A stretch of DNA of 64,000 nt from a plasmid. The notes under the pieces were generated by a model. The model worked only from the letters and a program-made list of their open reading frames with translations, searched no databases and was not told where the DNA came from. Position numbers and translations under genes: made by a program. How positions within the stretch are numbered: position 1 is the first letter of the stretch; each line of letters begins with the position of its first letter. Below are positions 3,123 to 19,935 of the stretch, one piece after another. The stretch is from assembly GCF_988243305.1 (NCBI RefSeq), contig NZ_OZ547138.1. One strand, given 5' to 3'.

Positions 3123-3146
3123 GTTCTCATCTCCCTTTTCTTTATG

Positions 3147-3162
3147 CTGTATGTTTATACAG
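3147..3162. promoter_or_regulatory. LexA box (SOS operator) CTGTATGTTTATACAG upstream of impC
   Basis: Matches the CTGT-N8-ACAG consensus; located 25 bp upstream of the impC start. Confidence 0.6.
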
Positions 3163-3516
3163 TATTCTAATAACTGAATCCGCACACAGTCAAATGTCAT
3201 TGTTGTGACTAAAAAACGCTCAATTCTCTGAGTGTGTGGCTGTATGCCTGCTGTGGGCTGCTGTGTCCAGCTTATCCACAGCATTTTGCGCACGGTTCTG
3301 TGAATAAAATACCTGGTTACCCAGGCCGTGCCGGCACGTTAACCGGGCTGCATCCGATGCAAGTGTGTCGCTGTCGCCGGCCTCCTCACCCGGTCACGTT
3401 TCGTCGTTCCTCCTCCACGCGCTGCGGCTTCGGGGCCGCACCTGCATTCGTATGCGGTCGCCCGGTTACAGGTGCGGCACGGCCTGATGGAGGCCGCATG
3501 TGAGAGGAGAATTCCC

Positions 3517-4443: not shown

Positions 4444-4455
4444 AGTATGACGGAG

Positions 4456-4485
4456 ACGGGCGGGCAACCGCCCGTTTCTTTTCCG
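4456..4485 (+). terminator. Rho-independent terminator candidate
   Basis: Hairpin ACGGGCGGG-caac-CGCCCGT followed by TTCTTTTCC. Confidence 0.5.
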
Positions 4486-4827
4486 GTAAAGGATGTCGCC
4501 GGGCTCCTCTTTTTACTGCGCCGGCTGACGCGGCGCGGCAGGAACGCTGCCTGTGGTCAGTGTCCCGCGTCCGGTGGGCACGGGACGGGCGCTTTTACCG
4601 CTCCCGGCTGGCACCGGTGACAGTGTACGCCAGCCCGTCGCCCTTTTCTGATGAACGCCCTTCAAGCCGCTTTCGCGGCATAGCCTTGCCGTCAGAAAGA
4701 CGACGGCTGCGGTATTCCACGGTCGGCCTGACCCGTTACCGGACGCGGTGAACAGCCCACAGGCAGCGGGGAACGGGCACCACAGGGGTGCCCTCCCGGT
4801 GTCCTCTGTAAGAGAAGGAGCGTTGTT

Positions 4828-5511
4828 ATGTCCCGTTTTGTCCTCGGTAACTGCATCGATGTTATGGCCCGTATTCCTGATAACGCCATTGATTTCATAC
4901 TGACTGACCCGCCGTACCTCGTCGGTTTTCGTGACCGTTTCGGGCGCACCATCGCTGGCGATAAAACCGATGAATGGCTGCAACCGGCCTGTAATGAAAT
5001 GTACCGCGTACTCAAAAAAGACGCGCTGATGGTGAGCTTCTACGGCTGGAACCGCGTCGATCGCTTTATGGCCGCCTGGAAAAATGCGGGATTCAGCGTT
5101 GTTGGTCACCTGGTCTTCACCAAAAACTACACATCGAAGGCCGCATATGTGGGCTATCGCCACGAATGCGCCTACATCCTGGCAAAAGGCCGTCCACGTC
5201 TGCCACAAAACCCGCTGCCGGACGTGCTGGGCTGGAAATATTCGGGCAATCGTCATCACCCGACGGAAAAGCCCGTTACCAGCCTGCAACCGCTGATTGA
5301 GAGCTTCACACACCCGAACGCAATTGTGCTGGACCCGTTTGCAGGCAGCGGCTCAACCTGCGTCGCTGCCCTCCAGTCCGGACGCCGGTATATCGGTATC
5401 GAGCTGCTTGAGCAGTATCACCGTGCCGGGCAGCAACGCCTTGCCGCCGTGCAACGGGCCATGCAGCAGGGGGCCGCGAATGATGACTGGTTTATGCCGG
5501 AGGCTGCGTAA
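4828..5511 (+). CDS. Orphan N6-adenine DNA methyltransferase (beta-class, DPPY motif)
   Basis: Motif LTDPPYL near the N-terminus and FAGSGST near the C-terminus; no adjacent restriction endonuclease gene. Confidence 0.8.
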   Translation: MSRFVLGNCIDVMARIPDNAIDFILTDPPYLVGFRDRFGRTIAGDKTDEWLQPACNEMYRVLKKDALMVSFYGWNRVDRFMAAWKNAGFSVVGHLVFTKNYTSKAAYVGYRHECAYILAKGRPRLPQNPLPDVLGWKYSGNRHHPTEKPVTSLQPLIESFTHPNAIVLDPFAGSGSTCVAALQSGRRYIGIELLEQYHRAGQQRLAAVQRAMQQGAANDDWFMPEAA

Positions 5512-6995: not shown

Positions 6996-7051
6996 TGACG
7001 CTGGCGGGGAAAATCTCCGCCTTTTCCAGCCGGTCCCCGGAAAGAGCAAAA

Positions 7052-7390
7052 GGATGTCGCCGCAGGCTCCGCTTTACCCGGCCATGCGGGGCATGGCCTT
7101 GTGGGTTTTCAGTTATGTGGCCTCAGCGTCGTGTGCGGGCTGTGCCGTGCCTCCATCGTAGCCGGGCTTCTGCGGGCGGGTTGCAAGGTAAGGTGAACCG
7201 CTGCGGTCACCCGGTCCCTCCTTCCCGTCTGCCGTGATTTTCCGGTCGTTCACCCGCTCAGATTTCGCGGTCTCACCCTCCAACTCCCGTCAGCCGTGCG
7301 CGTCAGGCTGCGGCTTCCCTTGCGCCCTTGCAACCCTGCAGGTCCGGCAAAGATGGAGGCACGGCACCGCCCGGTGTCGCGGAATATGTG
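7052..7390. repeat. Structured GC-rich repeat, family A copy 1 (ssi/Frpo-like candidate single-strand promoter) upstream of klcA
   Basis: About 340 bp near-identical to 14001-14340; both end just upstream of an antirestriction gene start. Confidence 0.6.
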
Positions 7391-7408
7391 AACAACGGAG
7401 GAAATCCC

Positions 7409-7834
7409 ATGCAGTATGCGAAACCTGTCACTCTGAACGTTGAAGAGTGCGACCGTCTGTCTTTTCTGCCTTACCTGTTTGGCCTGGATTTTCTGTATGC
7501 CGAAGCGTCTGTATACGCGCTGGCGAAAAAAATGATGCCGGAATATGAAGGCGGATTCTGGCACTTCATCCGCCTGCCGGACGGTGGCGGTTACATGATG
7601 CCGGATGGCGACCGTTTTCATCTGGTCAACGGTGAAAACTGGTTTGACCGTACCGTGAGTGCTGATGCCGCAGGCATCATTTTGACTTCCCTTGTGATTA
7701 ACCGCCAGTTGTGGCTGTACCACGACAGCGGGGATGCAGGGTTGACACACCTGTACAGGATGCGCGATGCGCAGTTGTGGAGCCACATCGAATTTCACCC
7801 CGAATGCAACGCGATTTACGCGGCACTTGACTGA
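7409..7834 (+). CDS. klcA: KlcA/ArdB-family antirestriction protein
   Basis: Internal start MQYAKPVTLNVEECDRLSFLPY with GGAGG RBS gives 141 aa typical of KlcA. Confidence 0.8.
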   Translation: MQYAKPVTLNVEECDRLSFLPYLFGLDFLYAEASVYALAKKMMPEYEGGFWHFIRLPDGGGYMMPDGDRFHLVNGENWFDRTVSADAAGIILTSLVINRQLWLYHDSGDAGLTHLYRMRDAQLWSHIEFHPECNAIYAALD

Positions 7835-7880
7835 TTAACGGACGGGGCGGCAATGCCGCCCCTGTAAAGGAGACGAGAAC

Positions 7881-8303
7881 ATGTACTGTACTGTTAAAGA
7901 AATCATCCGCGATGTACTGGATACAGACGTGCCGGACAGTGAATGCGTTTTTGCCGTGGTGCTGACCCGTGGGGATGTGCGTCACATAGCCCAGGACTGG
8001 AACCTGTCAGACGATGAGCTGGAAACCGTCATGCAGCGACTGGACGATGCCTTTGAGCATGGTGCGGATGTCAGCGTTGTTCACGACGTTGTTCGTGAAC
8101 TGATGGAAGAAAAGCGCGCCAGCCGTCATGTGACAGTCCCGGCGGTGATGCTGGAAAAAGTGATGGCGCTGGCAGGCAGTGAAATGAAGCGCCTGTATGC
8201 CGTCGGGAGTGAGAACGGGGGCGACGGTGACGCATTCGTCAGGGAGGAACGCGAAGCAATGGACGTTGTGTTACAGGCGCTGGACGGGGAGACGATGTCA
8301 TGA
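7881..8303 (+). CDS. Hypothetical leading-region protein; paralog of the ORF at 5746-6180
   Basis: 140 aa; related to 5746-6180. Confidence 0.5.
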   Translation: MYCTVKEIIRDVLDTDVPDSECVFAVVLTRGDVRHIAQDWNLSDDELETVMQRLDDAFEHGADVSVVHDVVRELMEEKRASRHVTVPAVMLEKVMALAGSEMKRLYAVGSENGGDGDAFVREEREAMDVVLQALDGETMS

Positions 8304-8491
8304 ATATCAGCACAGAAACCCGCGAAATTCTGCGTAATTACAGGGCCGTGATTAATGCGCGGCGTCGTGAAATGGGGCAGAAACCGCTCACCACCGCGCA
8401 GATTGTTGATGAAATCTGCGATTTTGTGGCGAATCAGCAGGCGGTTTTCCTGGGCGGTCACTACATCCTTCAGGGCAGCAGAAACAGGTGA
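8300..8491 (+). CDS. Small hypothetical protein
   Basis: 63 aa; start overlaps the preceding stop (ATGA). Confidence 0.3.
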   Translation: MNISTETREILRNYRAVINARRREMGQKPLTTAQIVDEICDFVANQQAVFLGGHYILQGSRNR

Positions 8492-8693
8492 TACAGGGGC
8501 AGGCGGTGGAGGCCGCCTGTCAGCCCGCGCGAAAACCCCAGGCAGGCTGACGCCTGCCGGAAACGCGGGGTGCAGCGCCTGCGGCGCTGCCGGCCCGGCT
8601 TTCCGGTCAGAAGGTAGTGTATGGCTGTATGCAGGGAACAGGAGTGATATTCCGTGACACTGTCACCGTTTCTGGCTGTCTTTTATTGCGCCC

Positions 8694-9200
8694 ACTTCGG
8701 CTCCCGGCTGCCTGGCGGCATCCGGTCGTCAGGCCCGACTCCGACGGGCAGCTGCTGGCGCACCCGCCAGTCTCCGCCGAACCCGCTGGCGCGGTTTCGG
8801 GCTGCCGCTACGGTCCGATGCGTGAAAACCCGGCTTGCAGCGACCGTTCCGGTCGCGCCGCCCCTGTCGCGCCGTGACCTGCGCTCCCTGCACACCTGAC
8901 GGTGTGTGAGGAAACTGCGCCTGATGGCGCAGCAGTCCTCCCTCCTGCCGCCACTCCTGCGGCCTGTTTCCCGCTGTGGACTTTCCGGGGGGCAGACGTA
9001 ACCCCCTCCCGTTCCATCTGTCCAGGGTGAGATGCACCGGCCACAAAATTTTTAGCCATGAACCCGGCAAAAAATTTTGCGTCCGCCCCCGGACAGCTGC
9101 CCCGTGAGGCGGTAAACGGGCCCCCATCGGAAAGGTCCACTGCGGGGAGAAAACCCTGTGAAGTGGACGGCAGGAGGAGCTTTCGCTCCTCTGAAGGGGC
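8694..9200. repeat. Structured GC-rich repeat, family B copy 1 (ssi/Frpo-like) upstream of ssb
   Basis: About 500 bp homologous to 15041-15545 and, in part, 18071-18395. Confidence 0.6.
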
Positions 9201-9260
9201 ACATGAACGTCCCGTCGCCGGTATCCGGTTTATCTCACATCTTTCAGTCAGGAGGTTCTT

Positions 9261-9788
9261 ATGAGTGCACGTGGTATCAACAAGGTCATCCTCGTCGGGC
9301 GTCTGGGCAATGATCCGGAGGTCCGTTACATCCCCAACGGGGGCGCAGTGGCAAACCTGCAGGTGGCCACGTCAGAAAGCTGGCGCGACAAACAGACGGG
9401 GGAGATGCGGGAGCAGACGGAATGGCACCGCGTGGTGCTGTTCGGCAAGCTCGCGGAAGTGGCAGGTGAATATCTGCGCAAGGGCGCGCAGGTCTACATC
9501 GAGGGGCAACTCCGTACCCGTAGCTGGGAAGATAACGGTATCACCCGTTACGTCACTGAAATTCTTGTTAAGACCACGGGCACCATGCAGATGCTGGGGA
9601 GTGCACCACAGCAGAACGCTCAGGCGCAACCGAAGCCTCAGCAGTACGGCCAGCCACAGAGTGCTGACGCAACGAAAAAAGGGAGCGCGAAAACGAAAGG
9701 CCGTGGACGTAAGGCTGCGCAGCCGGAGCCTCAGCCGCAACCGCCGGAGGGTGAGGATTACTGGTTTTCAGACGATATCCCGTTCTGA
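9261..9788 (+). CDS. ssb: Plasmid single-stranded DNA-binding protein
   Basis: 175 aa, N-terminal OB-fold sequence [19 protein letters not shown], Gln/Pro-rich linker, acidic tail DDIPF. Confidence 0.95.
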
Positions 9789-9838
9789 ATGACTGACTGT
9801 GAAAACCGCCCCGTCCAGTGCGGGGCATCACCGGAGAT

Positions 9839-10078
9839 ATGAGGATGAGCGAATATTTCAGAATATTTCAGGGGCTGCCTGACGGCTCCTTTACCCGCGA
9901 ACAGGCTGAAGCCGTTGCCGCACAGTACCGGAATGTCTTTATCGAGGATGATCAGGGAACGCATTTTCGCCTGGTTGTCCGCAATAACAGTGGCCTGGTC
10001 TGGCGTACCTGGAATTTTGAGGACGGTGCCGGGTACTGGATGAACCATGTCATCCGGAATTTCGGCATTCTTAAGTAA
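9839..10078 (+). CDS. Small hypothetical protein (start uncertain: 9818 GTG, 9839 or 9845 ATG)
   Basis: ORF downstream of ssb in the same orientation. Confidence 0.35.
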
Positions 10079-10136
10079 GAGAGGTGCCGGACGCGCGAAC
10101 GTCCGGCAGGACATAAGCAATTATAAGGGGATGATT

Positions 10137-12095
10137 ATGCCTGTAACGAAGTGTGAACCAGAAACCACCCGCAAAGCAAGCCGTAAATCTGTAAAAACGC
10201 AGGAAACTGTCCTGTCTGCCCTGCTGGCGCAGACGGAGGAAGTGAGCGTGCCGCTGGCCTCGCTGATTAAATCACCGCTGAATGTGCGCACGGTGCCGTA
10301 TTCTGCGGAGTCCGTCAGCGAACTGGCGGAGTCCATTAAGGGCGTTGGCCTGTTGCAGAATCTGGTCGTGCATACCCTGCCTGGTGACCGTTACGGTGTC
10401 GCCGCAGGTGGTCGCCGACTGGCTGCACTCAACATGCTGGCAGAGCGTGGCATTATTCCGGCTGACTGGCCTGTACGCGTGAAGGTTATTCCGCAGGAGC
10501 TGGCGACTGCCGCATCAATGACTGAAAACGGTCATCGTCGGGATATGCACCCTGCCGAACAGATTGCCGGATTCCGTGCGATGGCGCAGGAAGGCAAAAC
10601 GCCTGCACAAATCGGTGATTTGCTGGGCTATTCGCCCCGCCACGTTCAGCGAATGCTGAAACTGGCAGACCTTGCGCCTGTCATCCTCGATGCGCTGGCA
10701 GAAGACCGCATCACCACAGAGCACTGTCAGGCGCTGGCGCTGGAGAACGACACCGCGCGTCAGGTGCAGGTGTTTGAAGCCGCCTGCCAGTCGGGATGGG
10801 GCGGTAAACCGGAAGTACAGACCATTCGTCGTCTGGTGACCGAAAGTGAAGTGGCGGTGGCGGGGAACAGTAAATTCCGCTTTGTGGGGGCTGATGCCTT
10901 CTCGCCAGATGAACTGCGCACTGATTTGTTCAGCGACGACGAGGGTGGCTATGTGGACTGTGTTGCGCTCGATGCCGCCCTGCTGGAAAAACTCCAGGCT
11001 GTTGCAGAGTTCCTTCGGGAAGCCGAAGGCTGGGGATGGTGCGCCGGACGCATGGAGCCTGTCGGTGAGTGCCGTGAGGATGCCGGAACATACCGCTGTC
11101 TGCCGGAGCCGGAAGCGGTGCTGACGGAGGCGGAAGAAGAACGCCTGAACGAACTGATGACGCGTTACGACGCGCTGGAAAACCAGTGTGAGGAATCCGA
11201 CCTGCTGGAAGCAGAAATGAAGCTGATTGACTGCATGGCGAAGGTCAGGGCGTGGACGCCGGAGATGCGTGCCGGAAGTGGCGTGGTGGTGTCCTGGCGT
11301 TATGGAAACGTATGTGTCCAGCGTGGTGTGCAGTTGCGCAGTGAAGATGACGCGACTGATGACGCTGACCGCACGGAACAGGTGCAGGAGAAAGCGTCAG
11401 TGGAGGAAATCAGTCTGCCGTTGCTGACGAAAATGTCTTCCGAACGCACGCTGGCAGTCCAGGCAGCACTGATGCAGCAACCGGACAAATCCCTGACACT
11501 GCTGGCATGGACGCTCTGCCTGAATGTGTTTGACAGCGGAGCGTACAGTAAACCAGCACAAATCAGCCTGGAATGTAAACATTATTCGCTGACCAGCGAT
11601 GCGCCGTCAGGGAAGGAAGGTGCCGCATTCCTGGCGCTGATGGCAGAAAAAGCCCGTCTTGCGGCCCTGTTACCGGAGGGATGGTCACGGGACATGACGA
11701 CGTTCCTGTCACTCAGTCAGGAGGTGCTGTTATCCCTGCTCAGTTTCTGCACCGCATGCAGCCTTAACGGTGTCCAGACCCGCGAGTGTGGTCGCACGTC
11801 ACGCAGTCCGCTTGACTCACTGGAGAGCGCCATCGGTTTTCACATGCGCGACTGGTGGCAGCCGACGAAAGCAAACTTCTTCGGACACCTGAAAAAGCCG
11901 CAGATTATCGCAGCCCTGAATGATGCCGGACTGTCCGGTGCCGCACGGGACGCAGAGAAGATGAAGAAAGGCGATGCCGCTGAACATGCAGAGTTCCATA
12001 TGAAAGACAACCGCTGGGTGCCTGGCTGGATGTGTTCACCACGTCCACAGACGGATGCCACTGAACGCGCCGATAACCTGGCTGATGCCGCCTGA
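10137..12095 (+). CDS. ParB-like nuclease domain protein of the leading region
   Basis: N-terminal ParB/Srx-like region (LQNLVVHTLPGDRYGVAAGGRRLAAL); about 650 aa; start ATG 10137 preferred (AAGGGG RBS). Confidence 0.7.
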   Translation: MPVTKCEPETTRKASRKSVKTQETVLSALLAQTEEVSVPLASLIKSPLNVRTVPYSAESVSELAESIKGVGLLQNLVVHTLPGDRYGVAAGGRRLAALNMLAERGIIPADWPVRVKVIPQELATAASMTENGHRRDMHPAEQIAGFRAMAQEGKTPAQIGDLLGYSPRHVQRMLKLADLAPVILDALAEDRITTEHCQALALENDTARQVQVFEAACQSGWGGKPEVQTIRRLVTESEVAVAGNSKFRFVGADAFSPDELRTDLFSDDEGGYVDCVALDAALLEKLQAVAEFLREAEGWGWCAGRMEPVGECREDAGTYRCLPEPEAVLTEAEEERLNELMTRYDALENQCEESDLLEAEMKLIDCMAKVRAWTPEMRAGSGVVVSWRYGNVCVQRGVQLRSEDDATDDADRTEQVQEKASVEEISLPLLTKMSSERTLAVQAALMQQPDKSLTLLAWTLCLNVFDSGAYSKPAQISLECKHYSLTSDAPSGKEGAAFLALMAEKARLAALLPEGWSRDMTTFLSLSQEVLLSLLSFCTACSLNGVQTRECGRTSRSPLDSLESAIGFHMRDWWQPTKANFFGHLKKPQIIAALNDAGLSGAARDAEKMKKGDAAEHAEFHMKDNRWVPGWMCSPRPQTDATERADNLADAA

Positions 12096-12146
12096 TGAAC
12101 AACCACACCGCCCCGCCGGAGACGGGGCGGCAGAGGGAGAAATACG

Positions 12147-12584
12147 ATGATGAATACCGAACTGACACTGAATGCCCTGCAGTCCATGAATGCCCAGGAA
12201 TATGAAGAAATCCGTGCTGCGGGAAGCGATATGCGCCGTAATCTCACTCACGAGGTGATGCGTGAAGTGGACGCACCGGCTAACTGGATGATGAACGGAG
12301 AGTATGGCAGCGAGTTCGGGGGCTTTTTCCCCGTCCAGGTTCGTTTCACGCCAGCCCACGAACGTTTCCACCTGGCATTATGTTCGCCGGGAGACGTCTC
12401 TCAGCTCTGGATGCTGGTTCTGGTGAATGGTGGTGGACAGCCTTTCGCCGTCGTTCAGGTGCAACATATCTTCACGCCTGTCGCGATCAGTCACACGCTG
12501 GCGCTTGCCGCGACACTGGATGCGCAGGGATACAGTGTTAACGACATCATCCATATCCTGATGGCAGAAGGAGGTCAGGCATGA
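12147..12584 (+). CDS. psiB: Plasmid SOS inhibition protein B
   Basis: 145 aa; [23 protein letters not shown]...HILMAEGGQ matches the PsiB family. Confidence 0.9.
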
Positions 12585-13300
12585 GCGCACGTTCACGGGC
12601 ACTGATCCCCCTCAGCGCAGAACAACAGGCCGCCATGCAGGCGGTGGCTGTCACAGAACAACGTCGTCGTCAGGGACGCACACTTTCAGCATGGCCTTAT
12701 GCCACCGCTTTCTTTCGCTGCCTGAATGGCAGTCGCCGGATTTCGCTGACCGATCTCCGCTTTTTTGCCCCTGCGCTGACGAAGGAGGAATTTCATGGCA
12801 ACCGTCTCCTGTGGCTGGCTGCCGTGGATAAACTGATTGAAAGTTTTGGGGAAGTCTGTGTTCTTCCCCTGCCATCCGATGCGGGGCACCGTCTGTTCCC
12901 GTCCGTGCCTTTTCGTGAAGGTGAGCGTCGTCGTCAGAAAACCACGCTGACAGAGCAGAAATACAGCCGCCAGCGGGAACGTGAGGCAGAACGACGGGAA
13001 CTGGAATACCAGACATGTTTTGCTCAGGCGCAGATTGACCTTGCGTTTCATACTCCCGCCACGGTCGGAAGCTGGTTGTCCCGCTGGTCTGGTGTTGTTG
13101 AGGAGCATGATCTGGAAACGATTTTCTGGGGGTGGTGCGGGCGTTTTCCATCACTGTCATCATTTGACCGGTTTTTCTGGCAGGAGGAACCACTCTGGCG
13201 GCTGATTTTTGAAGCCGGTGAGGCCGGTCGTGGTGCACCGGTACAGGTACGTGCACTTGAGCAGTGGATGATCCCGAACAAGCTGGAGAACGTAATATGA
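12581..13300 (+). CDS. psiA: Plasmid SOS inhibition protein A
   Basis: 239 aa immediately downstream of psiB with overlapping start/stop, the conserved psiB-psiA arrangement. Confidence 0.85.
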
Positions 13301-13893
13301 TGAAATCAGACGAAAAATACCAGGTTCCCGCGTGGATGCGACCTCTGTTGCCGTTGCTCTGCAACACCGGGGGGAACGATCCGGAAGAACTGCTGAATGA
13401 TACAGAAACCACTGCCAGTGCGAATGTTGTCCGTTATGTACTGATAGTTGCTGTGCGGTCGCAGGTTGATCTGCTGCAGCTTCTGTACAGGAAAGGGCTG
13501 TTGCGCACAGAGATACCAGGTGGCTTTTCACCGGAAGAAGCGCAGGCACTCCTGGATAATCTGGTGCGCAGCCATATCAGCAAGGCGCTGTCGGGCGAGC
13601 GAATGGCAGCCCGTGACAGAAATGCCGATCTGGCCTGGATTGGACAGCAACTGGTCGATGCCGCCTGGTTTGTCCGTGCCACACTGGAAGCGCATGGGAT
13701 GAGCGTCGGAAATGAGAGTCCCCCTGCTCCGCCGGAGACAATGCCGGACATACAGACACGGGAACTGGTGATGTTGATCAAGCGACTGGCATCATCGCTG
13801 AAAGCGGTGAAACCGGACAGTTGTGTGGTGCGTGAAGCGCAGGACTGGCTGCGCGACAGAAAACTTGTGAGCATCACGGATGTTCTCCGGTGA
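13297..13893 (+). CDS. Hypothetical leading-region protein
   Basis: ATG 13297 overlaps the psiA stop; about 198 aa. Confidence 0.45.
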   Translation: MMKSDEKYQVPAWMRPLLPLLCNTGGNDPEELLNDTETTASANVVRYVLIVAVRSQVDLLQLLYRKGLLRTEIPGGFSPEEAQALLDNLVRSHISKALSGERMAARDRNADLAWIGQQLVDAAWFVRATLEAHGMSVGNESPPAPPETMPDIQTRELVMLIKRLASSLKAVKPDSCVVREAQDWLRDRKLVSITDVLR

Positions 13894-14000
13894 ACCAGTG
13901 GAGGTATGCTTGAGGGGCAGGGACATGCCAGTCATGATCGTTTCATATCAGGGGTGGTCTGGAGGTCATGCGGTGTGCTCCCTGCTCTCGCCGGAATAAG

Positions 14001-14340
14001 GAAGTCGCCGGCGGCTCCGCTTTTACCCGGCCATGCGGGGCATGGCCTTGTGGGTTTTCAGTTATGTGGCCGCCGTGTCGTGTGCGGGCTGTGCCGTGCC
14101 TCCATCGTAGCCGGGCTTCTGCGGGCGGGATGCAAGGTAAGATGAACCGCTGCGGTCACCCGGTCCCTCCTTCCCGTCTGCCGTGATTTTCCGGTCGTTC
14201 ACCCGCTCAGATTTCGCGGTCTCACCCTCCAACTCCCGTCAGCCGTGCGCGTCGGGCTGCGGCTTTCCTTGCGCCCTTGCATCCCTGCAGGCCCGGCAAA
14301 GATGGAGGCACGGCACCGCCCGGTGTCGCAGAACATGTGA
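14001..14340. repeat. Structured GC-rich repeat, family A copy 2 (ssi/Frpo-like) upstream of ardA
   Basis: Near-identical to 7052-7390. Confidence 0.6.
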
Positions 14341-14357
14341 CTATGGAGGATTCGGGA

Positions 14358-14858
14358 ATGTCTGTTGTTGCACCTGCTGTATACGTTGGAACCTGGCACA
14401 AATACAACTGTGGAAGCATCGCCGGACGCTGGTTTGACCTGACCACGTTTGATGATGAGCGCGACTTTTTCGCCGCCTGCCGTGCTCTTCACCAGGATGA
14501 AGCCGATCCTGAACTGATGTTTCAGGATTATGAGGGATTCCCGGGGAATATGGCCTCTGAATGTCATATCAACTGGGCCTGGGTTGAAGGCTTCCGCCGG
14601 GCACGGGATGAAGGCTGCGAAGAGGCTTATCGTCTCTGGGTGGATGATACCGGTGAGACGGATTTTGACAGCTTCCGCGATGCCTGGTGGGGCGAGGCTG
14701 ACAGTGAGGAGGCTTTTGCGGTTGAGTTCGCCAGTGATACCGGCCTGCTGGCTGACGTGCCGGAGACGGTGGCGCTCTATTTTGACTATGAGGCGTATGC
14801 GCGGGATTTATTCCTGGACTCCTTCACCTTTATTGACGGTCATGTGTTCCGTCGGTGA
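14358..14858 (+). CDS. ardA: ArdA antirestriction protein (DNA mimic, anti type I R-M)
   Basis: Internal start MSVVAPAVYVGTWHKYNCGSIAGRWFDL gives 166 aa, highly acidic; about 5 kb from oriT as in IncI1. Confidence 0.9.
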   Translation: MSVVAPAVYVGTWHKYNCGSIAGRWFDLTTFDDERDFFAACRALHQDEADPELMFQDYEGFPGNMASECHINWAWVEGFRRARDEGCEEAYRLWVDDTGETDFDSFRDAWWGEADSEEAFAVEFASDTGLLADVPETVALYFDYEAYARDLFLDSFTFIDGHVFRR

Positions 14859-15040
14859 TTTACTCCCCCGCTCCGGCGGGGGTATGGCCTGCCAGGCCGC
14901 CGGAAAACCCTGGCAGGCTTACGCCTGCCTGAAATGCAGGAGGGCCGCGCCTGCGGCGCTGCCCTTCCTGCCCGTCATGGTGTGAGGCATTTTTCTGTTA
15001 TGTCGTTTCTGTTGTTCTGATTTCCGGAGGCGGGGACACC

Positions 15041-15545
15041 TTCGGCTCCCGGCTGCCTGGCGGCATCCGGTCGTCAGGCCCGACTCCGACAGGCAGCTGC
15101 TGGCGCACCCGCCAGTCTCCGCCGAACCCGCTGGCGCGGTTTCGGGCTGCCGCTACGGTCCGATGTCTGAAAAACCAGGCTTGCAGCGACCGTTCCGGTC
15201 GCGCCGCCTCTGTCGCGCCGTGACCTGCGCTCCCTGCACACCTGACGGTGTGTAAGGAAACTGCGCCTGATGGCGCAGTTGTCTGCCCTTCCGCCGCCAC
15301 CCCTGCGGCCTGTTTCCCGCTGTGGACTTTCCGGGGGCTGAAGCGGCCACAACACGTGTCAGCCGTCCAGGGGGGAGATGTACCAGCCACAAAACTTTTT
15401 GCCGCAAGCGTCAAAAACTTTTGCGTCTGCCCCCGGACAACTGCCCCGTGCCGTGGCTGTCGCTGCCCCATCGGAAAGGTCCACTGCGGGGAGAAACCCC
15501 GAAGAAGTGGACGGCAGAAGGGGCTTTCGCCCCTCCGGGGGAGCA
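15041..15545. repeat. Structured GC-rich repeat, family B copy 2 (ssi/Frpo-like)
   Basis: Homologous to 8694-9200. Confidence 0.6.
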
Positions 15546-15589
15546 ACCGGTCGGCCCGGCGACCTGATTCAGCAGAAGGAGACGTTTTC

Positions 15590-16024
15590 ATGACAGTCAG
15601 CAGCACGATTTCCGTTTTTTGCCGCGACGGGGTGTTCCGTACCGTTTACTGCCACCTGCACGGTGAGCCGACCTGGAACGGTCGCATCCTGCATACCCAC
15701 TATGCCACCGGTCAGCAGGCCGAAGCCCTGGTTGAACACGGTGATATCCGTTGCCTCGGTCCCCGTTGCGACAAACCCGCCGGGCATACGCTTCAGAACC
15801 CGGTGGACGGTGTGACGGCTTATTACGGACGTGACAGTGGTTTCCGGATGGACAGTGAGGCGCGTGAGTACCGTTCTTTCAGGGAGGCCATCGCCACGGA
15901 AAGCACTGAAGAGGTGCGCTTCCATTATGTGTTCATCGACGGCTACTGGAAGGTGATGTACCGCACGCCGGAAGGCTGGAAGATGAAGTCGCTTGCGCTG
16001 GCACTGCGCCGCTGTCCGAAATGA
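15590..16024 (+). CDS. Hypothetical Cys/His-containing protein directly downstream of an ssi-like element
   Basis: ATG 15590 with AGAAGGAG RBS; 144 aa (MTVSSTISVFCRDGVF...). Confidence 0.5.
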   Translation: MTVSSTISVFCRDGVFRTVYCHLHGEPTWNGRILHTHYATGQQAEALVEHGDIRCLGPRCDKPAGHTLQNPVDGVTAYYGRDSGFRMDSEAREYRSFREAIATESTEEVRFHYVFIDGYWKVMYRTPEGWKMKSLALALRRCPK

Positions 16025-16030
16025 AAAAAA

Positions 16031-16051
16031 GGCAGGGCGATAAACCCTGCC
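16031..16051. terminator. Hairpin GGCAGGG-cgataaa-CCCTGCC flanked by an A-run; candidate (bidirectional) terminator
   Basis: Inverted repeat immediately after the stop of the 15590-16024 ORF. Confidence 0.3.
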
Positions 16052-16117
16052 TCTCTCCGCCGGCGCTTCCCCGCCAGGAAGCCCGGCATCTCAATCACTA
16101 TCTATGGAGATTATGCC

Positions 16118-16384
16118 ATGAGACCATCAATTATCTTCGCAACCGCCGAGTATGTAAAGCGTCTGCGTGAAGAGTGCCTGCGGGAGAATAAACCCCTGCA
16201 CCGCCATACCCGCTTCAGACGTCAGGAGCTGGCACAGGATGAGATTAACCCGGACGTCCTGGCGATGAGCGGTCATATCGCCAGACGCTGCAGTGAGCAG
16301 AAGCGGGTGCGTATCCCCGCTATGAAAGCCAGCGAATGGGGCCACCTGCTCCGCGCGCTTGAAATTGAACGGGTCTGCCACTGA
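16118..16384 (+). CDS. Small hypothetical protein
   Basis: 88 aa; GGAG RBS. Confidence 0.35.
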   Translation: MRPSIIFATAEYVKRLREECLRENKPLHRHTRFRRQELAQDEINPDVLAMSGHIARRCSEQKRVRIPAMKASEWGHLLRALEIERVCH

Positions 16385-16448
16385 TTAACCCTTGCCGTCT
16401 GCCTGTGCAGGCGGCAGGATACGTTCAGACATCTCACCAGGAGGAACC

Positions 16449-17351
16449 GTGAGTAAGAAGAAAAACACCACAACGCCCACGCCGCATGATGCCGCGTTCC
16501 GGTCGTTCCTGGCGAATCCCGACGTCGCCAGAGATTTTCTGGAACTGCATCTTCCGGCGGAGTACCGGCAGTTGTGCGACCTGTCCACGCTGAAGCTGGA
16601 ACCCGCCACCTTTGTAGAGCCGGACCTGCATCAGTACGCCAGCGATATCCTCTGGAGCGTGAAAACCACCGGGGGTGAAGACGGCTATGTTTATACGCTC
16701 ATCGAGCACCAGAGCACCGAAAATCTGTACATGCCTTTTCGCATGTTACGTTACAGTGTGGCGGCGATGCAGAGACATCTGGAGCAGCACAAAACGTTGC
16801 CACTGGTGATTCCGGTGCTGTTCTATCACGGTGAGCGCAGCCCGTACCCGTACAGCATGAACTGGCTGGACTGTTTTGAGAATCCGGCACTTGCGGCTAA
16901 AATATACACAAAGCCGTTTCCGCTGGTTGATATCACTGTCGTTGATGACAATGAAATCATGAATCATCGCCGGATGGCCGCACTGACGCTGCTGATGAAG
17001 CATATCCGCCATCGTGACATGATGGAGCTGCTGGACAAACTCCCGAAGGTCATGGTGGAAATTTCAGACGAGCAGGTGCGTGTTCTGATTCATTACATCG
17101 TTAACGCAGGGGACTCTGTATCACCGGAATTTATGCGGGCGCTGGCTGAGCGTCTGCCGCAGCATGAGGATAAACTGATGACTATCGCAGAACGTCTTGA
17201 GCAAAAAGGTCGCCAGGAGGGCAGGATGGAAGGTGCGCTTGAAAAAGCCCTGGCTATTGCGTGCCAGCTTCAGAAAATGGGGATGACGCCGGAGCAGATT
17301 AAGCAGGCTACCGGGCTTTCCGATGACGAACTGAAGAAAATCACTCACTGA
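16449..17351 (+). CDS. Rpn-family (YhgA-like) recombination-promoting nuclease / putative transposase
   Basis: GTG start with AGGAGG RBS; about 300 aa with the YhgA-like core (ASDILWSV...YTLIEHQS) and the characteristic repeated C-terminal tail (ERLEQKGRQEGRMEGALEKA). Confidence 0.7.
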   Translation: MSKKKNTTTPTPHDAAFRSFLANPDVARDFLELHLPAEYRQLCDLSTLKLEPATFVEPDLHQYASDILWSVKTTGGEDGYVYTLIEHQSTENLYMPFRMLRYSVAAMQRHLEQHKTLPLVIPVLFYHGERSPYPYSMNWLDCFENPALAAKIYTKPFPLVDITVVDDNEIMNHRRMAALTLLMKHIRHRDMMELLDKLPKVMVEISDEQVRVLIHYIVNAGDSVSPEFMRALAERLPQHEDKLMTIAERLEQKGRQEGRMEGALEKALAIACQLQKMGMTPEQIKQATGLSDDELKKITH

Positions 17352-17363
17352 TGAGAGTATCAC

Positions 17364-17389
17364 AGCCCGGCAAAATGCCGGGCTTTTTA
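17364..17389 (+). terminator. Rho-independent terminator after the Rpn gene
   Basis: Hairpin AGCCCGGC-aaaat-GCCGGGCT followed by TTTTT. Confidence 0.55.
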
Positions 17390-17413
17390 TCCAGCAGGAG
17401 CAGAGCAAACAGT

Positions 17414-17584
17414 ATGACGCTTGCAGAACGTCTTATACAGAAAGGTTTTGAAAAAGGCGCTCTTGAAGTGGCGCGGGAAATAGCCTGTCGGCTTCGGGAT
17501 ATGGGCTGGCCGCCGAAACGGATTCAGGAGGCTACCGGACTTTCCGGTGAAGAACTGAAAAAACTGTTTCCTGATGAGCAGTAG
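17414..17584 (+). CDS. Small protein homologous to the Rpn C-terminal domain (free-standing RpnS-like candidate)
   Basis: 56 aa from ATG 17414 (CAGGAG RBS); MTLAERLIQKG..GALEVAREIACRLRDMGWPPKRIQEATGLSGEELKKL aligns with the Rpn tail TIAERLEQKG..GALEKALAIACQLQKMGMTPEQIKQATGLSDDELKKI. Confidence 0.45.
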   Translation: MTLAERLIQKGFEKGALEVAREIACRLRDMGWPPKRIQEATGLSGEELKKLFPDEQ

Positions 17585-17614
17585 CCTGGCATTCAGCCAG
17601 GCTGTGAATCACGC

Positions 17615-17866
17615 TCACACATCCTCTGCCGTTTCCCCCAGTTCATTTTCCAGACGCCTGATGATATCTGCCTTACGCATCCCCTGCATGTGAGGCAGCA
17701 GGTCACGGACTGAAAGAGCCTGGGTGGTCCTCCAGACGGTGACGTCCACCTGTTCCGCATTTTCCCAGGCGTGCCATGTTCTCTGCGTCACGCCAAATTC
17801 TCTGGCCGCTTTTTCGCGTGACCAGAGCATGCTTTTTCGCCAGATTCGCAGTTCCCAGTCGGTCAT
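17615..17866 (-). CDS. Small HTH (XRE-like) DNA-binding protein
   Basis: 83 aa; segment LWSREKAAREFGVTQRTWHAWE resembles an HTH; palindromic operators in its upstream region. Confidence 0.5.
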   Translation of the reverse strand: MTDWELRIWRKSMLWSREKAAREFGVTQRTWHAWENAEQVDVTVWRTTQALSVRDLLPHMQGMRKADIIRRLENELGETAEDV

Positions 17867-17880
17867 AAAATACCTTTGAA

Positions 17881-17968
17881 AAAGTGAAAAAACTTCACTT
17901 TATTTTATCACCATAATCACCAAATCAGCGCGAAAAATAAGTGTGAAAAAGTGAAGAAATTTCACTTT
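17881..17968. promoter_or_regulatory. Two palindromic operator-like sites AAAGTGAA-N5-TTCACTTT (17881-17901 and 17948-17968)
   Basis: Two near-identical 21-bp palindromes 67 bp apart in an AT-rich intergenic region upstream of the HTH gene. Confidence 0.4.
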
Positions 17969-18070
17969 TTTTAATTGCAGATGTCGTGCTGTTTTCTCTG
18001 TTTTCACCTGTGCGGGAGTGGTGTGCCAGTGACCACCACATGCCATTGTTGTGCCGTCGTTTTTCTTCAG

Positions 18071-18395
18071 TCGCGCCGGATGCGGCGCTCCCTGCACACC
18101 TGACGGTGTGTAAGGCCACTGCGCCTGATGGCGCAGCTGTCTCTGCCTGTCTGCCGCCGCACTGCGGCCTGTTCTCCGCAGACGGACTTTCCGGGGGAAC
18201 ATACACGACCACATCCCGTTTCAGTTATCCAGGGGAGAGATGTACCAGCCACAAAACTTTTTGCCGCAGGCGTCAAAAACTTTTGCGTCTGCCCCCGGAC
18301 AACTGCCCCGTGACGTGGTGAGCATCCCCCGTCGGAAAGGTCCACTGCGGGGAAATCCCCGAAGACCCGGACGGCAGAAGGAGCTTCGCTCCTCC
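18071..18395. repeat. Structured GC-rich repeat, family B copy 3 (partial; ssi/Frpo-like)
   Basis: Homologous to the right-hand 330 bp of 8694-9200 and 15041-15545. Confidence 0.55.
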
Positions 18396-18442: not shown

Positions 18443-19294
18443 GTGATGAATCAGACTTTACCCACTGCTGACCTGAATACTGCCGGCACGACAGATATTA
18501 TTCCGTCTGTGGCCATCGACCGCATTATCGCGCAGCGTAACGAAGGTATTGCACTGTTCATGCAGGCGATGGAATGCCTGGCGACAGCACGCAGGATTCT
18601 GCTCGATGCTTCTGGTGACATTTTTCTCTACGGGTTTGAAGACTGCGTGACTGACTCTGTTCGATGCATGGATAAACCGGAAGAAGCAAAAAAGAATATC
18701 ACCCGTCTTGCCGACCGTAAAATCTGGGACCGCCTGATGGCGGATACGGGGATGTACACCTTCATGAGTTCATGCCAGCGTGATGAGTGGAACAGCCAGC
18801 TGATGAGCGACACCTGTCCTGAAATCACCCTGGACAATGTGCTGGCAACTTTTCGCCATCTGAATGCCAGCAAGATGCAGACATTTGAACAGAGACTGAT
18901 TGATGTCTACCGGAAATTGTCATGGGATTACAGAACCAATAATCCCTGCCGTCTGGGCAAGAAAATCATTATTGAAAACCTGCTGTACCGCTGGAGTAAC
19001 GGGCGTGTGACGCTGGACTGCAGCGGACGGGAGGCACTGGATGACCTGGTACGTCCGTTTTATCTGCTGGAGGGACGCAACGTTCCTGACTTCAGGAACA
19101 GCATCGGGGCGCAGTATGGTGAATATCTCGGGAACGGCGATAATGTCGGTAAGCTGTTAGAAGGGGAATATTTTACGGTGCGTGGCTACCAGAAAGGGAC
19201 CGTACACATTGTCTTTAAGCGTCCTGACCTTGTTGAAAAACTGAATGATATTATTGCACGGCATTATCCTGGTGCATTGCCGCCACGAGTCTGA
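18443..19294 (+). CDS. Hypothetical protein directly downstream of an ssi-like element
   Basis: 283-aa ORF with GAGGAG RBS, followed by a terminator. Confidence 0.5.
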   Translation: MMNQTLPTADLNTAGTTDIIPSVAIDRIIAQRNEGIALFMQAMECLATARRILLDASGDIFLYGFEDCVTDSVRCMDKPEEAKKNITRLADRKIWDRLMADTGMYTFMSSCQRDEWNSQLMSDTCPEITLDNVLATFRHLNASKMQTFEQRLIDVYRKLSWDYRTNNPCRLGKKIIIENLLYRWSNGRVTLDCSGREALDDLVRPFYLLEGRNVPDFRNSIGAQYGEYLGNGDNVGKLLEGEYFTVRGYQKGTVHIVFKRPDLVEKLNDIIARHYPGALPPRV

Positions 19295-19769: not shown

Positions 19770-19935
19770 CTGGCAGGGCTGCGCCCTGCCTCTGCCGTCT
19801 GCATAAGACTATGATGCACAAAAATAACAGGCTATAATTGACCGAAAAACGGGACAGGATGTGGGAATGTCGGACCGCGCACGCGCACTCAGACATTCCC
19901 CACCTGGTCAGGGCTTTGCCCCGACACCCCGGTAA
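19770..19935 (-). other. oriT: Origin of transfer (oriT) region with inverted repeats; nick predicted on the minus strand
   Basis: Intergenic region immediately upstream of nikA-nikB; inverted repeats GGCAGGGC-tgc-GCCCTGCC (19783-19801) and GGAATGTC...GACATTCC (19864-19900); sequence resembles my recollection of the R64 nick region. Confidence 0.5.

What the first reader, a model, noticed from the sequence alone, without database searches (positions are those of the whole stretch)
7052..18395. Five copies of two families of structured GC-rich repeats precede leading-region genes (ssi/Frpo-like single-strand promoter candidates)
Family A (about 340 bp, near-identical copies at 7052-7390 and 14001-14340) sits immediately upstream of klcA and ardA. 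Family B (about 500 bp; 8694-9200, 15041-15545 and partial 18071-18395) sits upstream of ssb, the 15590 ORF and the 18443 ORF. All are on the strand that would serve as template when the minus strand enters a recipient from oriT at about 19.8 kb, and all are rich in inverted repeats. This matches the known logic of single-strand promoters that drive early anti-defence and SOS-inhibition genes in F and ColIb-P9, and it marks every gene directly behind a copy as probably expressed early in the recipient.
Basis: partly seen in the sequence, partly recalled or inferred. Interest (0 to 1): 0.5.

Follow-up and report, generated by a model that had tools for sequence, protein, structure and literature searches.

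The report
Known single-strand promoters of plasmid leading region
The five GC-rich repeats are real and are the already published hairpin "single-strand promoters" that let an IncI-type conjugative plasmid switch on anti-restriction and SOS-inhibition genes as soon as its DNA strand enters a new cell, so the finding is correct but not new.

Summary
There are two copies of a ~350-bp repeat (7050-7402, 14000-14350) and three of a ~330-520-bp repeat (8693-9217, 15040-15561, 18067-18395), each just upstream of a + strand leading-region operon.

The window is an IncI-gamma/K1 plasmid, syntenic with IncI1 pESBL. oriT nic lies on the minus strand at 19854/19855, so the minus strand is the transferred strand.

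Family B is the ColIb-P9 ssi/F Frpo element ("class 1", ssp1). Family A is not Frpo-like in sequence. It is the separately published "class 2" promoter (Frpo3/ssp2), which in F also stalls complementary-strand synthesis. Wen et al. 2025 mapped transcription starts in recipients for the pESBL orthologues.

My folds, covariation counts and strand asymmetries support hairpins on the transferred strand. For class 2 I find -35 TTGCAx and -10 TAnnnT only on the transferred strand, with -11 to -9 mismatched. For class 1 I could not find canonical hexamers.

Verdict: already known; interest low.

The parts
19854..19925 (-). oriT core. NikA-type repeat GGGGTGTCGGGGCAAAGCCCTGACCAGG, inverted repeat GGAATGTC/GACATTCC, and nick region CACATCCTG|TCCCG. 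The nick lies between 19855 and 19854, so the minus strand is the transferred (T) strand and descending coordinates enter first.
   Evidence: AJ238399 (ColIb-P9 leading region) places its first ssi at nt 1459, which equals 19854-18395. The nick-site consensus YATCCTG|Y for IncP/IncI is from established knowledge.
18067..18395 (-). Class 1 (ssi/Frpo, ssp1) hairpin promoter, copy B3. Complete 328-nt unit upstream of the DUF4942 gene (18446-19294).
   Evidence: Minus-strand ssDNA fold -113.6 kcal/mol, z -5.6. 97.6% identical to ColIb ssi at AJ238399:1459 and 98.8% to the pESBL copy. Sliding-scan peak -85.1.
15211..15539 (-). Class 1 hairpin promoter, copy B2 (repeat 15040-15561 including the upstream module), upstream of the 15590-16024 ORF.
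   Evidence: Fold -174.1 kcal/mol, z -9.3. 85.5% identical to ColIb ssi at 4353. Scan peak -102.5 on minus against -86.7 on plus.
14086..14322 (-). Class 2 (Frpo3/ssp2) hairpin promoter, copy A2 (repeat 13998-14350), upstream of ardA (14358-14858). On the non-template arm, -35 TTGCAT is at 14135-14130 and -10 TACGAT at 14109-14104.
   Evidence: Fold -92.6, z -4.5. Motif match with 0 mismatches on the minus strand at 14093-14116. Hexamers. 88.9% identical to the pESBL ardA-upstream copy.
8865..9195 (-). Class 1 hairpin promoter, copy B1 (repeat 8693-9217 including the upstream module), upstream of the ssb-DUF905-parB-like-psiB-psiA operon (9261 onwards).
   Evidence: Fold -173.4 kcal/mol, z -11.0. 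97.9% identical to ColIb ssi at 11381 and 98.8% to pESBL. Minus strand 25 kcal/mol more stable than plus.
7137..7373 (-). Class 2 hairpin promoter, copy A1 (repeat 7050-7402), upstream of the klcA/ardB-like antirestriction gene (7409-7834). -35 TTGCAA is at 7186-7181 and -10 TACGAT at 7160-7155. The + strand counterpart reads AAAGAT.
   Evidence: Folds (-72.2 kcal/mol, z -5.3 for 7125-7385). Motif. Hexamers. Covariation.
4509..4821 (-). Probable class 3 (ssp3) hairpin directly upstream of the M.EcoGIX-type methylase gene (4828-5511).
   Evidence: It is the only other segment passing the published criterion of < -75 kcal/mol per 300 nt (-90.5). Fold -110.2, z -7.2. 98.4% identical to pESBL and 95.4% to F. 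No similarity to classes 1 or 2.
3322..3486 (-). Third class-2-type (short-form) hairpin upstream of the DUF1281 gene (ATG 3517). -35 TTGCAT is at 3362-3357 and -10 TAACGT at 3341-3336. It is a candidate seventh ssDNA promoter.
   Evidence: Fold -50.3, z -4.2. Exact motif match at 3325-3348 on the minus strand, while the + arm reads TACAGG. It co-varies with class 2 in alignment A3. The non-template arm is 100% conserved in a Salmonella plasmid that is 84% identical overall. The same short form precedes methylase and klcA homologues elsewhere.
8693..8866 (-). Extra module on the promoter-distal side of B1 (equivalent 15040-15211 in B2, absent from B3). It is made of short hairpins, including GCGACCGGAACGGTCGC, which is also found next to F Frpo1/2.
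   Evidence: z only -2.6. Function not established.

Best explanation
The repeats are single-strand DNA promoters of the plasmid leading region.

Mechanism. During conjugation the minus strand is nicked at 19854/5 and enters the recipient 5' end first, in descending coordinates. While single-stranded, each element folds into a long imperfect hairpin whose stem imitates a duplex sigma-70 promoter. Host RNA polymerase initiates in the stem and copies the incoming strand towards oriT. This produces mRNA for the operon immediately behind each copy:
- B3: the DUF4942 gene.
- B2: the 15590 ORF cluster.
- A2: ardA.
- B1: ssb to psiB and psiA.
- A1: klcA.

Complementary-strand synthesis then irons the hairpins into ordinary duplex, in which the hexamers are defective, and expression stops.

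Classes. Family B is class 1 (ColIb-P9 ssi / F Frpo, ssp1), whose transcripts can also prime DNA synthesis. Family A is class 2 (Frpo3/ssp2), which in F additionally acts as a UvrD-resolved roadblock that prolongs the single-stranded state.

Shown here: the repeats, the hairpins, covariation, strand asymmetry and homology. Shown in the literature on orthologues: recipient-specific transcription and start sites. Inferred: that this particular plasmid behaves the same way.
For: Homology and synteny
- The window is 100% identical to an IncI-gamma/K1 plasmid and gene-for-gene syntenic with pESBL.
- By position, B1 is 98.8%, B2 87.6%, B3 98.8% and A1/A2 88.6-88.9% identical to the pESBL elements.
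- B1 and B3 are 97.9% and 97.6% identical to the ColIb-P9 ssi units.

Structure
- Minus-strand ssDNA folds have z-scores of -3.8 to -11.
- A 300-nt sliding scan of 1-24 kb gives exactly six minus-strand segments below -75 kcal/mol. These are the five copies plus 4501-4800, matching the six promoters of PMC12672017.
- Class 1 copies: 97% of cells paired, 11 pairs with changes on both sides, 0/500 shuffles as high.
- Class 2 family: 23 of 58 pairs with changes on both sides against 7.9 in shuffles; 91% paired against 40% or less when the pairing is slid.

Strand specificity
- Class 1 is 17-25 kcal/mol more stable on the minus strand and has 5-10 G.T pairs per copy.
- Class 2 has TAnnnT only on the minus arm.
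- In 63 distinct class-2-type hairpins from other genomes, -12 is paired in 57/63. Positions -11, -10 and -9 are paired in only 12, 8 and 12 of 63. The duplex-form hexamer is TAnnnT in 2/63. TTG lies at a fixed 15 nt (52) or 20 nt (6) upstream.
- There is no + strand consensus duplex promoter upstream of any of these operons.

Literature
- PMC12672017, PMC9849209, PMC11541004, 10.64898/2026.01.09.698686 and 10.1101/2025.04.03.647016.
Against: - For class 1 I found no TAnnnT hexamer anywhere on the transferred strand of B1 or B2. I also found no -35/-10 pair better than 7 of 12. The 'canonical boxes' cited in the literature could therefore not be reproduced with my simple scans.
- Class 2 has an unusual 15-nt spacer, or 20 nt on the non-template arm in this plasmid.
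- The minus-over-plus stability advantage of class 2 is only about 3 kcal/mol.
- The TAnnnT in the 63-hairpin survey was imposed by the search pattern. Only the mismatch pattern, the TTG spacing and the downstream genes are independent evidence.
- There are no expression data for this plasmid itself.
- I could not see the published figures that mark the boxes and start sites.
Confidence: 0.9

Rival explanations
1. The elements are primarily DNA-replication signals on the incoming strand: single-strand initiation sites that supply primers, or structural roadblocks. Gene expression would be secondary.
For: The ssi elements were first isolated as priming signals. Frpo RNA primes DNA synthesis in vitro, and rifampicin-sensitive early conversion is seen next to ssp1 in F. 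ssp2 stalls complementary-strand synthesis at the end of its stem until UvrD acts.
Against: Every copy sits 35-70 nt upstream of a start codon of an anti-defence or establishment gene, here and in 59 hairpins from other genomes. [quoted passage not shown] The pESBL orthologues have mapped transcription starts. The replication roles are additional functions, not alternatives.
Confidence: 0.06
2. The repeats act at the RNA or duplex level. They would be ordinary duplex promoters, or 5'-UTR structures or terminators of + strand transcripts, and the hairpins on the transferred strand would be incidental.
For: Inverted repeats fold on both strands. Plus-strand folds are also stable, for example -85 to -156 kcal/mol. 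Weak terminator-like hits occur at 7085-7103 and 14034-14052.
Against: No + strand consensus promoter lies upstream of any operon. G.T pairs and the TAnnnT hexamers exist only on the minus strand. Class 1 is 17-25 kcal/mol weaker on the plus strand. No Rfam family matches. Expression of the orthologues is confined to the period before duplex conversion.
Confidence: 0.03
3. The repeats are selfish or recombinogenic intergenic repeats, or remnants of a mobile module, with no dedicated function.
For: Recombination between Frpo repeats deletes or inserts a 9.7-kb leading-region block in IncI plasmids. The two class 2 copies within one plasmid are homogenised: 95-96% identical within a plasmid against 86-89% between plasmids.
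Against: Compensatory base changes maintain the stems. The -10 interior is kept unpaired across 63 variants. Position and orientation relative to genes and to oriT are fixed.
Confidence: 0.01

Closest known systems
ColIb-P9 ssi units / F plasmid Frpo1-Frpo2 (class 1 ssDNA promoters, ssp1a/b)
   Same: Family B copies are 85-98% identical to the three 328-nt ColIb-P9 units and occupy the same positions as in ColIb-P9 and pESBL. They share the apex block and a 3' flanking block with F Frpo1/2. They have the same long imperfect hairpin on the transferred strand and the same downstream genes (ssb-psiB-psiA).
   Different: The host plasmid is IncI-gamma/K1 rather than IncI1. B2 is only 85-88% identical to its IncI1 counterpart. 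B1 and B2 carry an extra ~170-bp upstream module. I could not locate canonical -35/-10 boxes.
Class 2 ssDNA promoter of pESBL (upstream of klcA and ardA) = F Frpo3 = ssp2
   Same: Family A copies are 87-89% identical to these elements and lie upstream of the same two genes. They share the same promoter stem (GCCGTG/CACGGC, CCGGGC/GCCCGG, TTGCAx, TAnnnT with a mismatched interior) and the same apical domain.
   Different: This plasmid carries a sub-variant in which the spacer segment of both arms is replaced. The -10 is TACGAT instead of TAAGAT, and the non-template arm has 20 nt instead of 15 nt between the hexamers. Roadblock activity has been shown only for F ssp2.
Class 3 ssDNA promoter of pESBL (upstream of M.EcoGIX) = ssp3
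   Same: Window 4380-4830 is 98.4% identical to pESBL and 95.4% to F. It lies directly upstream of the methylase gene and is the sixth segment passing the published energy threshold.
   Different: I infer its identity with 'class 3' from position and threshold, not from the published figure.
Low-certainty candidates Frpo*1 and Frpo*3, and candidate Frpo'4, of Samuel et al. 2024 (insect gut metagenome)
   Same: Frpo'4 is a long-form class 2 homologue. Frpo*1 and Frpo*3 share the short-form promoter stem with window 3322-3486.
   Different: They come from another element and have never been tested. The window's short-form copy precedes a DUF1281 gene.

Membership tests
Class 1 ssDNA promoter (ssi/Frpo, ssp1) | Sequence homology to the 328-nt ColIb-P9 ssi units and to F Frpo | tested here: met
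   B1 is 97.9%, B3 97.6% and B2 85.5% identical to the ColIb units. Two blocks of 76-94% identity match F Frpo1/2.
Class 1 ssDNA promoter (ssi/Frpo, ssp1) | Located in the leading region, with the hairpin on the transferred strand and the downstream genes templated by that strand | tested here: met
   The nic is on the minus strand at 19854/5 and the genes are on the + strand. The units lie 1.46, 4.3 and 10.7 kb from nic.
Class 1 ssDNA promoter (ssi/Frpo, ssp1) | Long, stable, imperfect stem-loop in single-stranded form | tested here: met
   z-scores -5.6 to -11. 97% of cells paired with compensatory changes. Minus strand favoured by 17-25 kcal/mol.
Class 1 ssDNA promoter (ssi/Frpo, ssp1) | -35 and -10 boxes reconstituted in the stem, with mismatches at the -10 | tested here: inconclusive
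   No TAnnnT on the T strand of B1/B2 and no pair at or above 8 of 12. What is conserved is TTGTGG after an A/T-rich apex, a 10-nt bulge GGTACATCTC and an invariant G.T.
Class 1 ssDNA promoter (ssi/Frpo, ssp1) | Transcription by sigma-70 RNA polymerase only in single-stranded form, early in recipients | not testable with these tools
   Reported for the pESBL orthologues by RNA-seq and 5' RACE and for F Frpo1/2 by deletion analysis.
Class 2 ssDNA promoter (Frpo3/ssp2) | Homology to the pESBL klcA- and ardA-upstream hairpins and to the F yfgB-upstream hairpin | tested here: met
   86-89% identity over ~360 bp. Same flanking genes.
Class 2 ssDNA promoter (Frpo3/ssp2) | Hairpin on the transferred strand with -35/-10 on the non-template arm and a defective duplex version | tested here: met
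   TTGCAA or TTGCAT and TACGAT on the minus arm; AAAGAT on the plus arm. The -11 to -9 bubble is conserved in 63 hairpins. Covariation.
Class 2 ssDNA promoter (Frpo3/ssp2) | Recipient-specific transcription start in the stem; roadblock to complementary-strand synthesis | not testable with these tools
   Shown for pESBL and F only.
Class 2-type promoter, applied to window 3322-3486 | Shares the promoter stem, strand, hexamers and distance to a start codon with class 2 | tested here: met
   Exact motif on the minus strand. It co-varies in A3. The ATG lies ~31 nt beyond the hairpin base. The short form precedes methylase and klcA homologues elsewhere.
Class 2-type promoter, applied to window 3322-3486 | Early transcription in recipients | not testable with these tools
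   Not among the six induced operons named in PMC12672017. Its 300-nt energy of -69.6 falls short of that paper's -75 threshold.
Rfam structured RNA families | Match to a curated covariance model | tested here: not met
   Only three chance-level hits (E 0.3-0.8), none reaching the gathering score.

The most novel reading that the evidence does not exclude
The window holds a seventh ssDNA promoter that has apparently not been described. It is a short-form class-2-type hairpin at 3322-3486 that would drive the DUF1281 gene at the far end of the leading region.

Class 2 would then be one branch of a wider family of modular hairpin-promoter cassettes in Enterobacterales plasmids. These cassettes are swapped between ardA, klcA, the ssDNA methylase and DUF1281 genes. 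The family is defined by a GCCGTG/CACGGC clamp, a TTG at a fixed 15 nt from the -10, and a conserved three-base bubble at -11 to -9.
Probability: 0.45. Interest if true: 0.35.

Novelty: already known. Interest (0 to 1): 0.2.

Why it matters
These elements set the first minute of a plasmid's life in a new host. They time the burst of anti-restriction (ArdA, KlcA/ArdB), methylase, SSB and SOS-inhibitor (PsiB) synthesis that lets resistance plasmids get past host defences.

That role has been established since 1997-2004 for class 1 and since 2024-2026 for classes 2 and 3. This window therefore adds only a further IncI-gamma/K1 example.

Three modest additions come from this analysis. There is a sequence and structure signature that finds class-2-type promoters genome-wide. 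The -10 interior is systematically unpaired while the duplex version is dead. And there is a candidate extra promoter upstream of DUF1281.

Tried and rejected
- Rfam search of 5-21 kb: nothing.
- Record lookups for AB021078, AP001918 and AP005147: not held. I used NC_018659 and NC_002483 instead.
- First guess that the class 3 promoter lay in the 3123-3540 intergenic region. I rejected this after the sliding energy scan put the sixth strong hairpin at 4501-4800. The 3.3-kb hairpin turned out to be class-2-like instead.
- The first sliding scan timed out and was rerun in parallel.
- Consensus sigma-70 scans for class 1 on either arm, a TAnnnT/TTGnnn census, and several manual registers. The registers tried were a promoter near the apex, a promoter near the base, a promoter on the 5' arm reading round the loop, and the bulge acting as the -10. 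None gave a conserved canonical pair.
- The TTGACG-17-TTTTGT on the 5' arm of F Frpo has no counterpart in the IncI units.
- NCBIfam named only the methylase.
- PMC3008174 (hairpin review) is not held. The supplement of PMC12672017 is not held, so the published box and start-site positions could not be compared.
- About half of the genome-wide motif hits were chance matches in GC-rich genomes with no partner arm. I discarded them.

Full report
**1. Observation**

A repeat search of 6.0-20.5 kb recovers both families.

- Family A: 7073-7372 and 14022-14321 are 97% identical without gaps. With flanks, the aligned repeat is about 7050-7402 and 13998-14350 at 94.9%.
- Family B: 8693-9217 and 15040-15561 are 79-97% identical by segment. 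The copy at 18067-18395 shares the gene-proximal ~330 bp at 80-84%.
- BLAST of each element against the whole window finds no other copies.
- Every copy ends a few tens of bases before a + strand start codon. These are the klcA-like antirestriction gene (7409), ssb (9261), ardA (14358), the 15590 ORF and the DUF4942 ORF (18446).

**2. Context and strand**

The region is 100% identical to an E. coli IncI-gamma/K1, MOBP/MPF_I plasmid. It is gene-for-gene syntenic with the IncI1 plasmid pESBL-EA11 and, over much of its length, with the F leading region.

Between the mobC-like gene and nikA, the minus strand reads GGGGTGTCGGGGCAAAGCCCTGACCAGG ... GGAATGTC ... GACATTCC CACATCCTG TCCCG. This is the IncI/IncP-type nick region (established knowledge), which places nic between 19855 and 19854 on the minus strand.

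There is independent support. The ColIb-P9 leading-region record lists its first ssi unit at nt 1459, and 19854 - 18395 = 1459.

The minus strand is therefore the transferred strand and enters in descending coordinates. All leading genes lie on the + strand, templated by the incoming strand and read towards oriT.

**3. Identity of the elements**

Against pESBL, by position, B1 is 98.8% identical, B2 87.6%, B3 98.8% and A1/A2 88.6-88.9%.

[quoted passage not shown] 2024 include the three ColIb-P9 units. B1, B3 and B2 are 97.9%, 97.6% and 85.5% identical to them. B1 and B2 instead carry an additional ~170-bp module on the promoter-distal side.

F Frpo1/2 share only two blocks with family B: the A/T-rich apex and a 3' flanking block. 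Family A has no similarity to family B or to Frpo.

**4. What is published**

- Wen et al. 2025 (PMC12672017) selectively killed donors, sequenced recipient RNA and found six strongly induced leading-region operons in pESBL. Each is preceded by a large hairpin. [quoted passage not shown]
- The class 2 element was also found independently as 'Frpo3' in F.
- It was listed as candidate Frpo'4 by Samuel et al..
- It was shown as 'ssp2' to be a cis-acting roadblock to complementary-strand synthesis, resolved by UvrD, which prolongs expression from downstream ssDNA promoters.
- Couturier et al. [quoted passage not shown]

**5. Independent checks of structure**

Folded as ssDNA, the minus strands give the following:

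| Copy | MFE (kcal/mol) | z |
|---|---|---|
| A1 | -88.7 | -3.8 |
| A2 | -92.6 | -4.5 |
| B1 | -173.4 | -11.0 |
| B2 | -174.1 | -9.3 |
| B3 | -113.6 | -5.6 |

I repeated the published mining procedure (300-nt windows, DNA parameters) over 1-24 kb. It gives exactly six minus-strand segments below -75 kcal/mol: the five copies and 4501-4800.

Among seven IncI class 1 copies, the consensus hairpin has 97% of cells paired and 11 pairs changed on both sides. No shuffle out of 500 reaches this, and slid pairings fall to 42-48%.

For class 2 and its relatives, 23 of 58 pairs show changes on both sides against 7.9 in shuffles, with 91% paired against 40% or less when slid.

**6. Strand specificity**

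Class 1 is 17-25 kcal/mol more stable on the minus strand than on the plus strand. It has 5-10 G.T pairs per copy, which would be C.A mismatches on the other strand. Class 2 differs by only ~3 kcal/mol.

Class 2 nevertheless carries a clear asymmetry in sequence. The motif GCCCGGYTANNNTNNNGNCACGGC occurs without mismatch three times, all on the minus strand, against 0.03 expected by chance. The partner arms on the + strand read AAAGAT or TACAGG instead of TAnnnT.

**7. Promoter boxes, class 2**

On the non-template (3') arm of A1, TTGCAA (7186-7181) and TACGAT (7160-7155) lie in the stem. A2 has TTGCAT and TACGAT.

A scan of one genome per species with the motif gave 125 matches. Of these, 59 have the partner arm and form 185- or 245-nt hairpins. 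Almost every one of the 59 lies 40-70 nt upstream of an ardA, klcA, ssDNA-methylase or DUF1281 homologue in Enterobacterales.

In 63 distinct hairpins indexed without gaps from the GCCGTG/CACGGC clamp:

- Position -12 is paired in 57.
- Positions -11, -10 and -9 are paired in only 12, 8 and 12.
- Positions -8 and -7 are paired in 50 and 47.
- A TTG lies exactly 15 nt (52 cases) or 20 nt (6 cases, this plasmid's variant) upstream.
- The hexamer that the duplex would present is TAnnnT in only 2.

The TAnnnT itself was imposed by the search pattern. The bubble, the TTG spacing and the downstream genes were not.

This is the signature expected of a promoter that works only as a hairpin. It matches the requirement, described for Frpo (Masai and Arai 1997, cited from memory), for mismatches at the -10. 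The 15-nt spacing is shorter than the usual 17, and I cannot explain it.

**8. Promoter boxes, class 1**

I could not reproduce canonical boxes. No TAnnnT exists on the transferred strand of B1 or B2, and no -35/-10 pair exceeds 7 of 12.

The conserved features are these:

- An A/T-rich apex followed by TTGTGG.
- A 10-nt bulge (GGTACATCTC) on the 3' arm.
- An invariant G.T that creates a T in CCCCTGGAC only in the hairpin form.
- A 3x3 internal loop.

The function of class 1 therefore rests on homology to experimentally characterised copies, not on my hexamer test.

**9. Rival readings**

- There is no + strand consensus duplex promoter upstream of any of these operons. The single + strand hit in 17 kb lies inside a gene. 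There is also no Rfam match. Both argue against ordinary promoters or RNA elements.
- The replication roles (priming, roadblock) are documented and are additional functions, not alternatives.
- Recombination between copies does occur in IncI plasmids. The two class 2 copies are homogenised within each plasmid: 95-96% identical within a plasmid against 86-89% between plasmids, next to an ardA gene that is 99.2% conserved. Maintained stems and a fixed position argue against repeats without function.

**10.

The hairpin at about 4509-4821 folds to -110.2 kcal/mol with z -7.2. It is 98.4% identical to pESBL and 95.4% to F, and it is unrelated to classes 1 and 2. It sits directly upstream of the methylase gene and is most likely the published class 3.

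A further hairpin at 3322-3486 folds to -50.3 kcal/mol with z -4.2. It carries the class 2 promoter stem with TTGCAT-15-TAACGT on the minus arm, and it precedes the DUF1281 gene by ~31 nt.

- It is present in about 4,400 plasmids, mostly at 95% identity or more.
- In a Salmonella plasmid that is 84% identical overall and has a different upstream context, the non-template arm is unchanged and the element again precedes DUF1281.
- It is not among the six published promoters, and it falls short of that study's energy threshold (-69.6 kcal/mol).
- Whether it fires is unknown.

**11. Verdict**

The finding is real and correctly interpreted, but it is already known. Interest is low. The only possibly new item is the third class-2-type hairpin, together with the family-wide -10 bubble signature.

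Noticed in passing
window 3322-3486 (minus strand): A third class-2-type hairpin lies upstream of the DUF1281 gene (ATG 3517). It carries -35 TTGCAT and -10 TAACGT only on the transferred strand. It is not among the six published pESBL promoters. It is conserved in ~4,400 plasmids, including F.
   Followed up: yes
window 4509-4821 (minus strand): A strong hairpin (z -7.2) lies directly upstream of the methylase gene and is probably the published class 3 promoter. It overlaps the RefSeq 'hypothetical protein' ORF at 4440-4751, which may therefore be a spurious call.
   Followed up: partly
window 7050-7402 and 13998-14350; L003 7012-7364 and 13958-14310: The two class 2 copies are 95-96% identical within each plasmid but only 86-89% identical between the window and pESBL. 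The neighbouring ardA gene is 99.2% identical between the two plasmids. The spacer segment of both hairpin arms has been replaced together, which looks like gene conversion between copies.
   Followed up: partly
window 8693-8866 and 15040-15211: An extra ~170-bp module of short hairpins lies on the promoter-distal side of B1 and B2 and is absent from B3. Its GCGACCGGAACGGTCGC hairpin is also next to F Frpo1/2 and the Salmonella Frpo* candidates. The fold z-score is only -2.6 and the function is unknown.
   Followed up: partly
loci L006-L118 (genome-contig scan): Class-2-type hairpins come in a ~185-nt and a ~245-nt form. They are exchanged between ardA, klcA, methylase and DUF1281 genes in Pantoea, Erwinia, Yersinia, Enterobacter, Rahnella and others. 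The TTG lies a fixed 15 nt from the -10, which is shorter than the usual sigma-70 spacing.
   Followed up: partly
L010, L011, L013, L016, L023, L055: Contigs labelled Streptomyces morookaense, Oscillibacter, Oscillospiraceae and Collinsella carry enterobacterial leading-region genes at 88-99% protein identity. The most likely cause is contamination or mis-binned plasmid contigs.
   Followed up: no
window 17867-17908 and 17934-17975: Two AT-rich 42-nt direct repeats (83% identical), each containing an inverted repeat AAGTGAA...TTCACTT, lie between the minus-strand helix-turn-helix regulator genes and copy B3. They may be operator sites.
   Followed up: no
window 3147-3193 (minus strand): The best consensus promoter of the region (TTGACT-18-TAGAAT) is followed by CTGTATAAACATACAG, a LexA-box-like palindrome. 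It heads the divergent DinI-like/umuDC-like operon.
   Followed up: no
window ~9175-9190 and the equivalent ends of B2 and B3: The gene-proximal end of each class 1 unit forms a small separate hairpin (GGAGC-GAAA/GAA-GCTCC) with one compensatory A-T to G-C change between copies. In the mRNA sense it would be a UUCG-type stem-loop in the leader.
   Followed up: no
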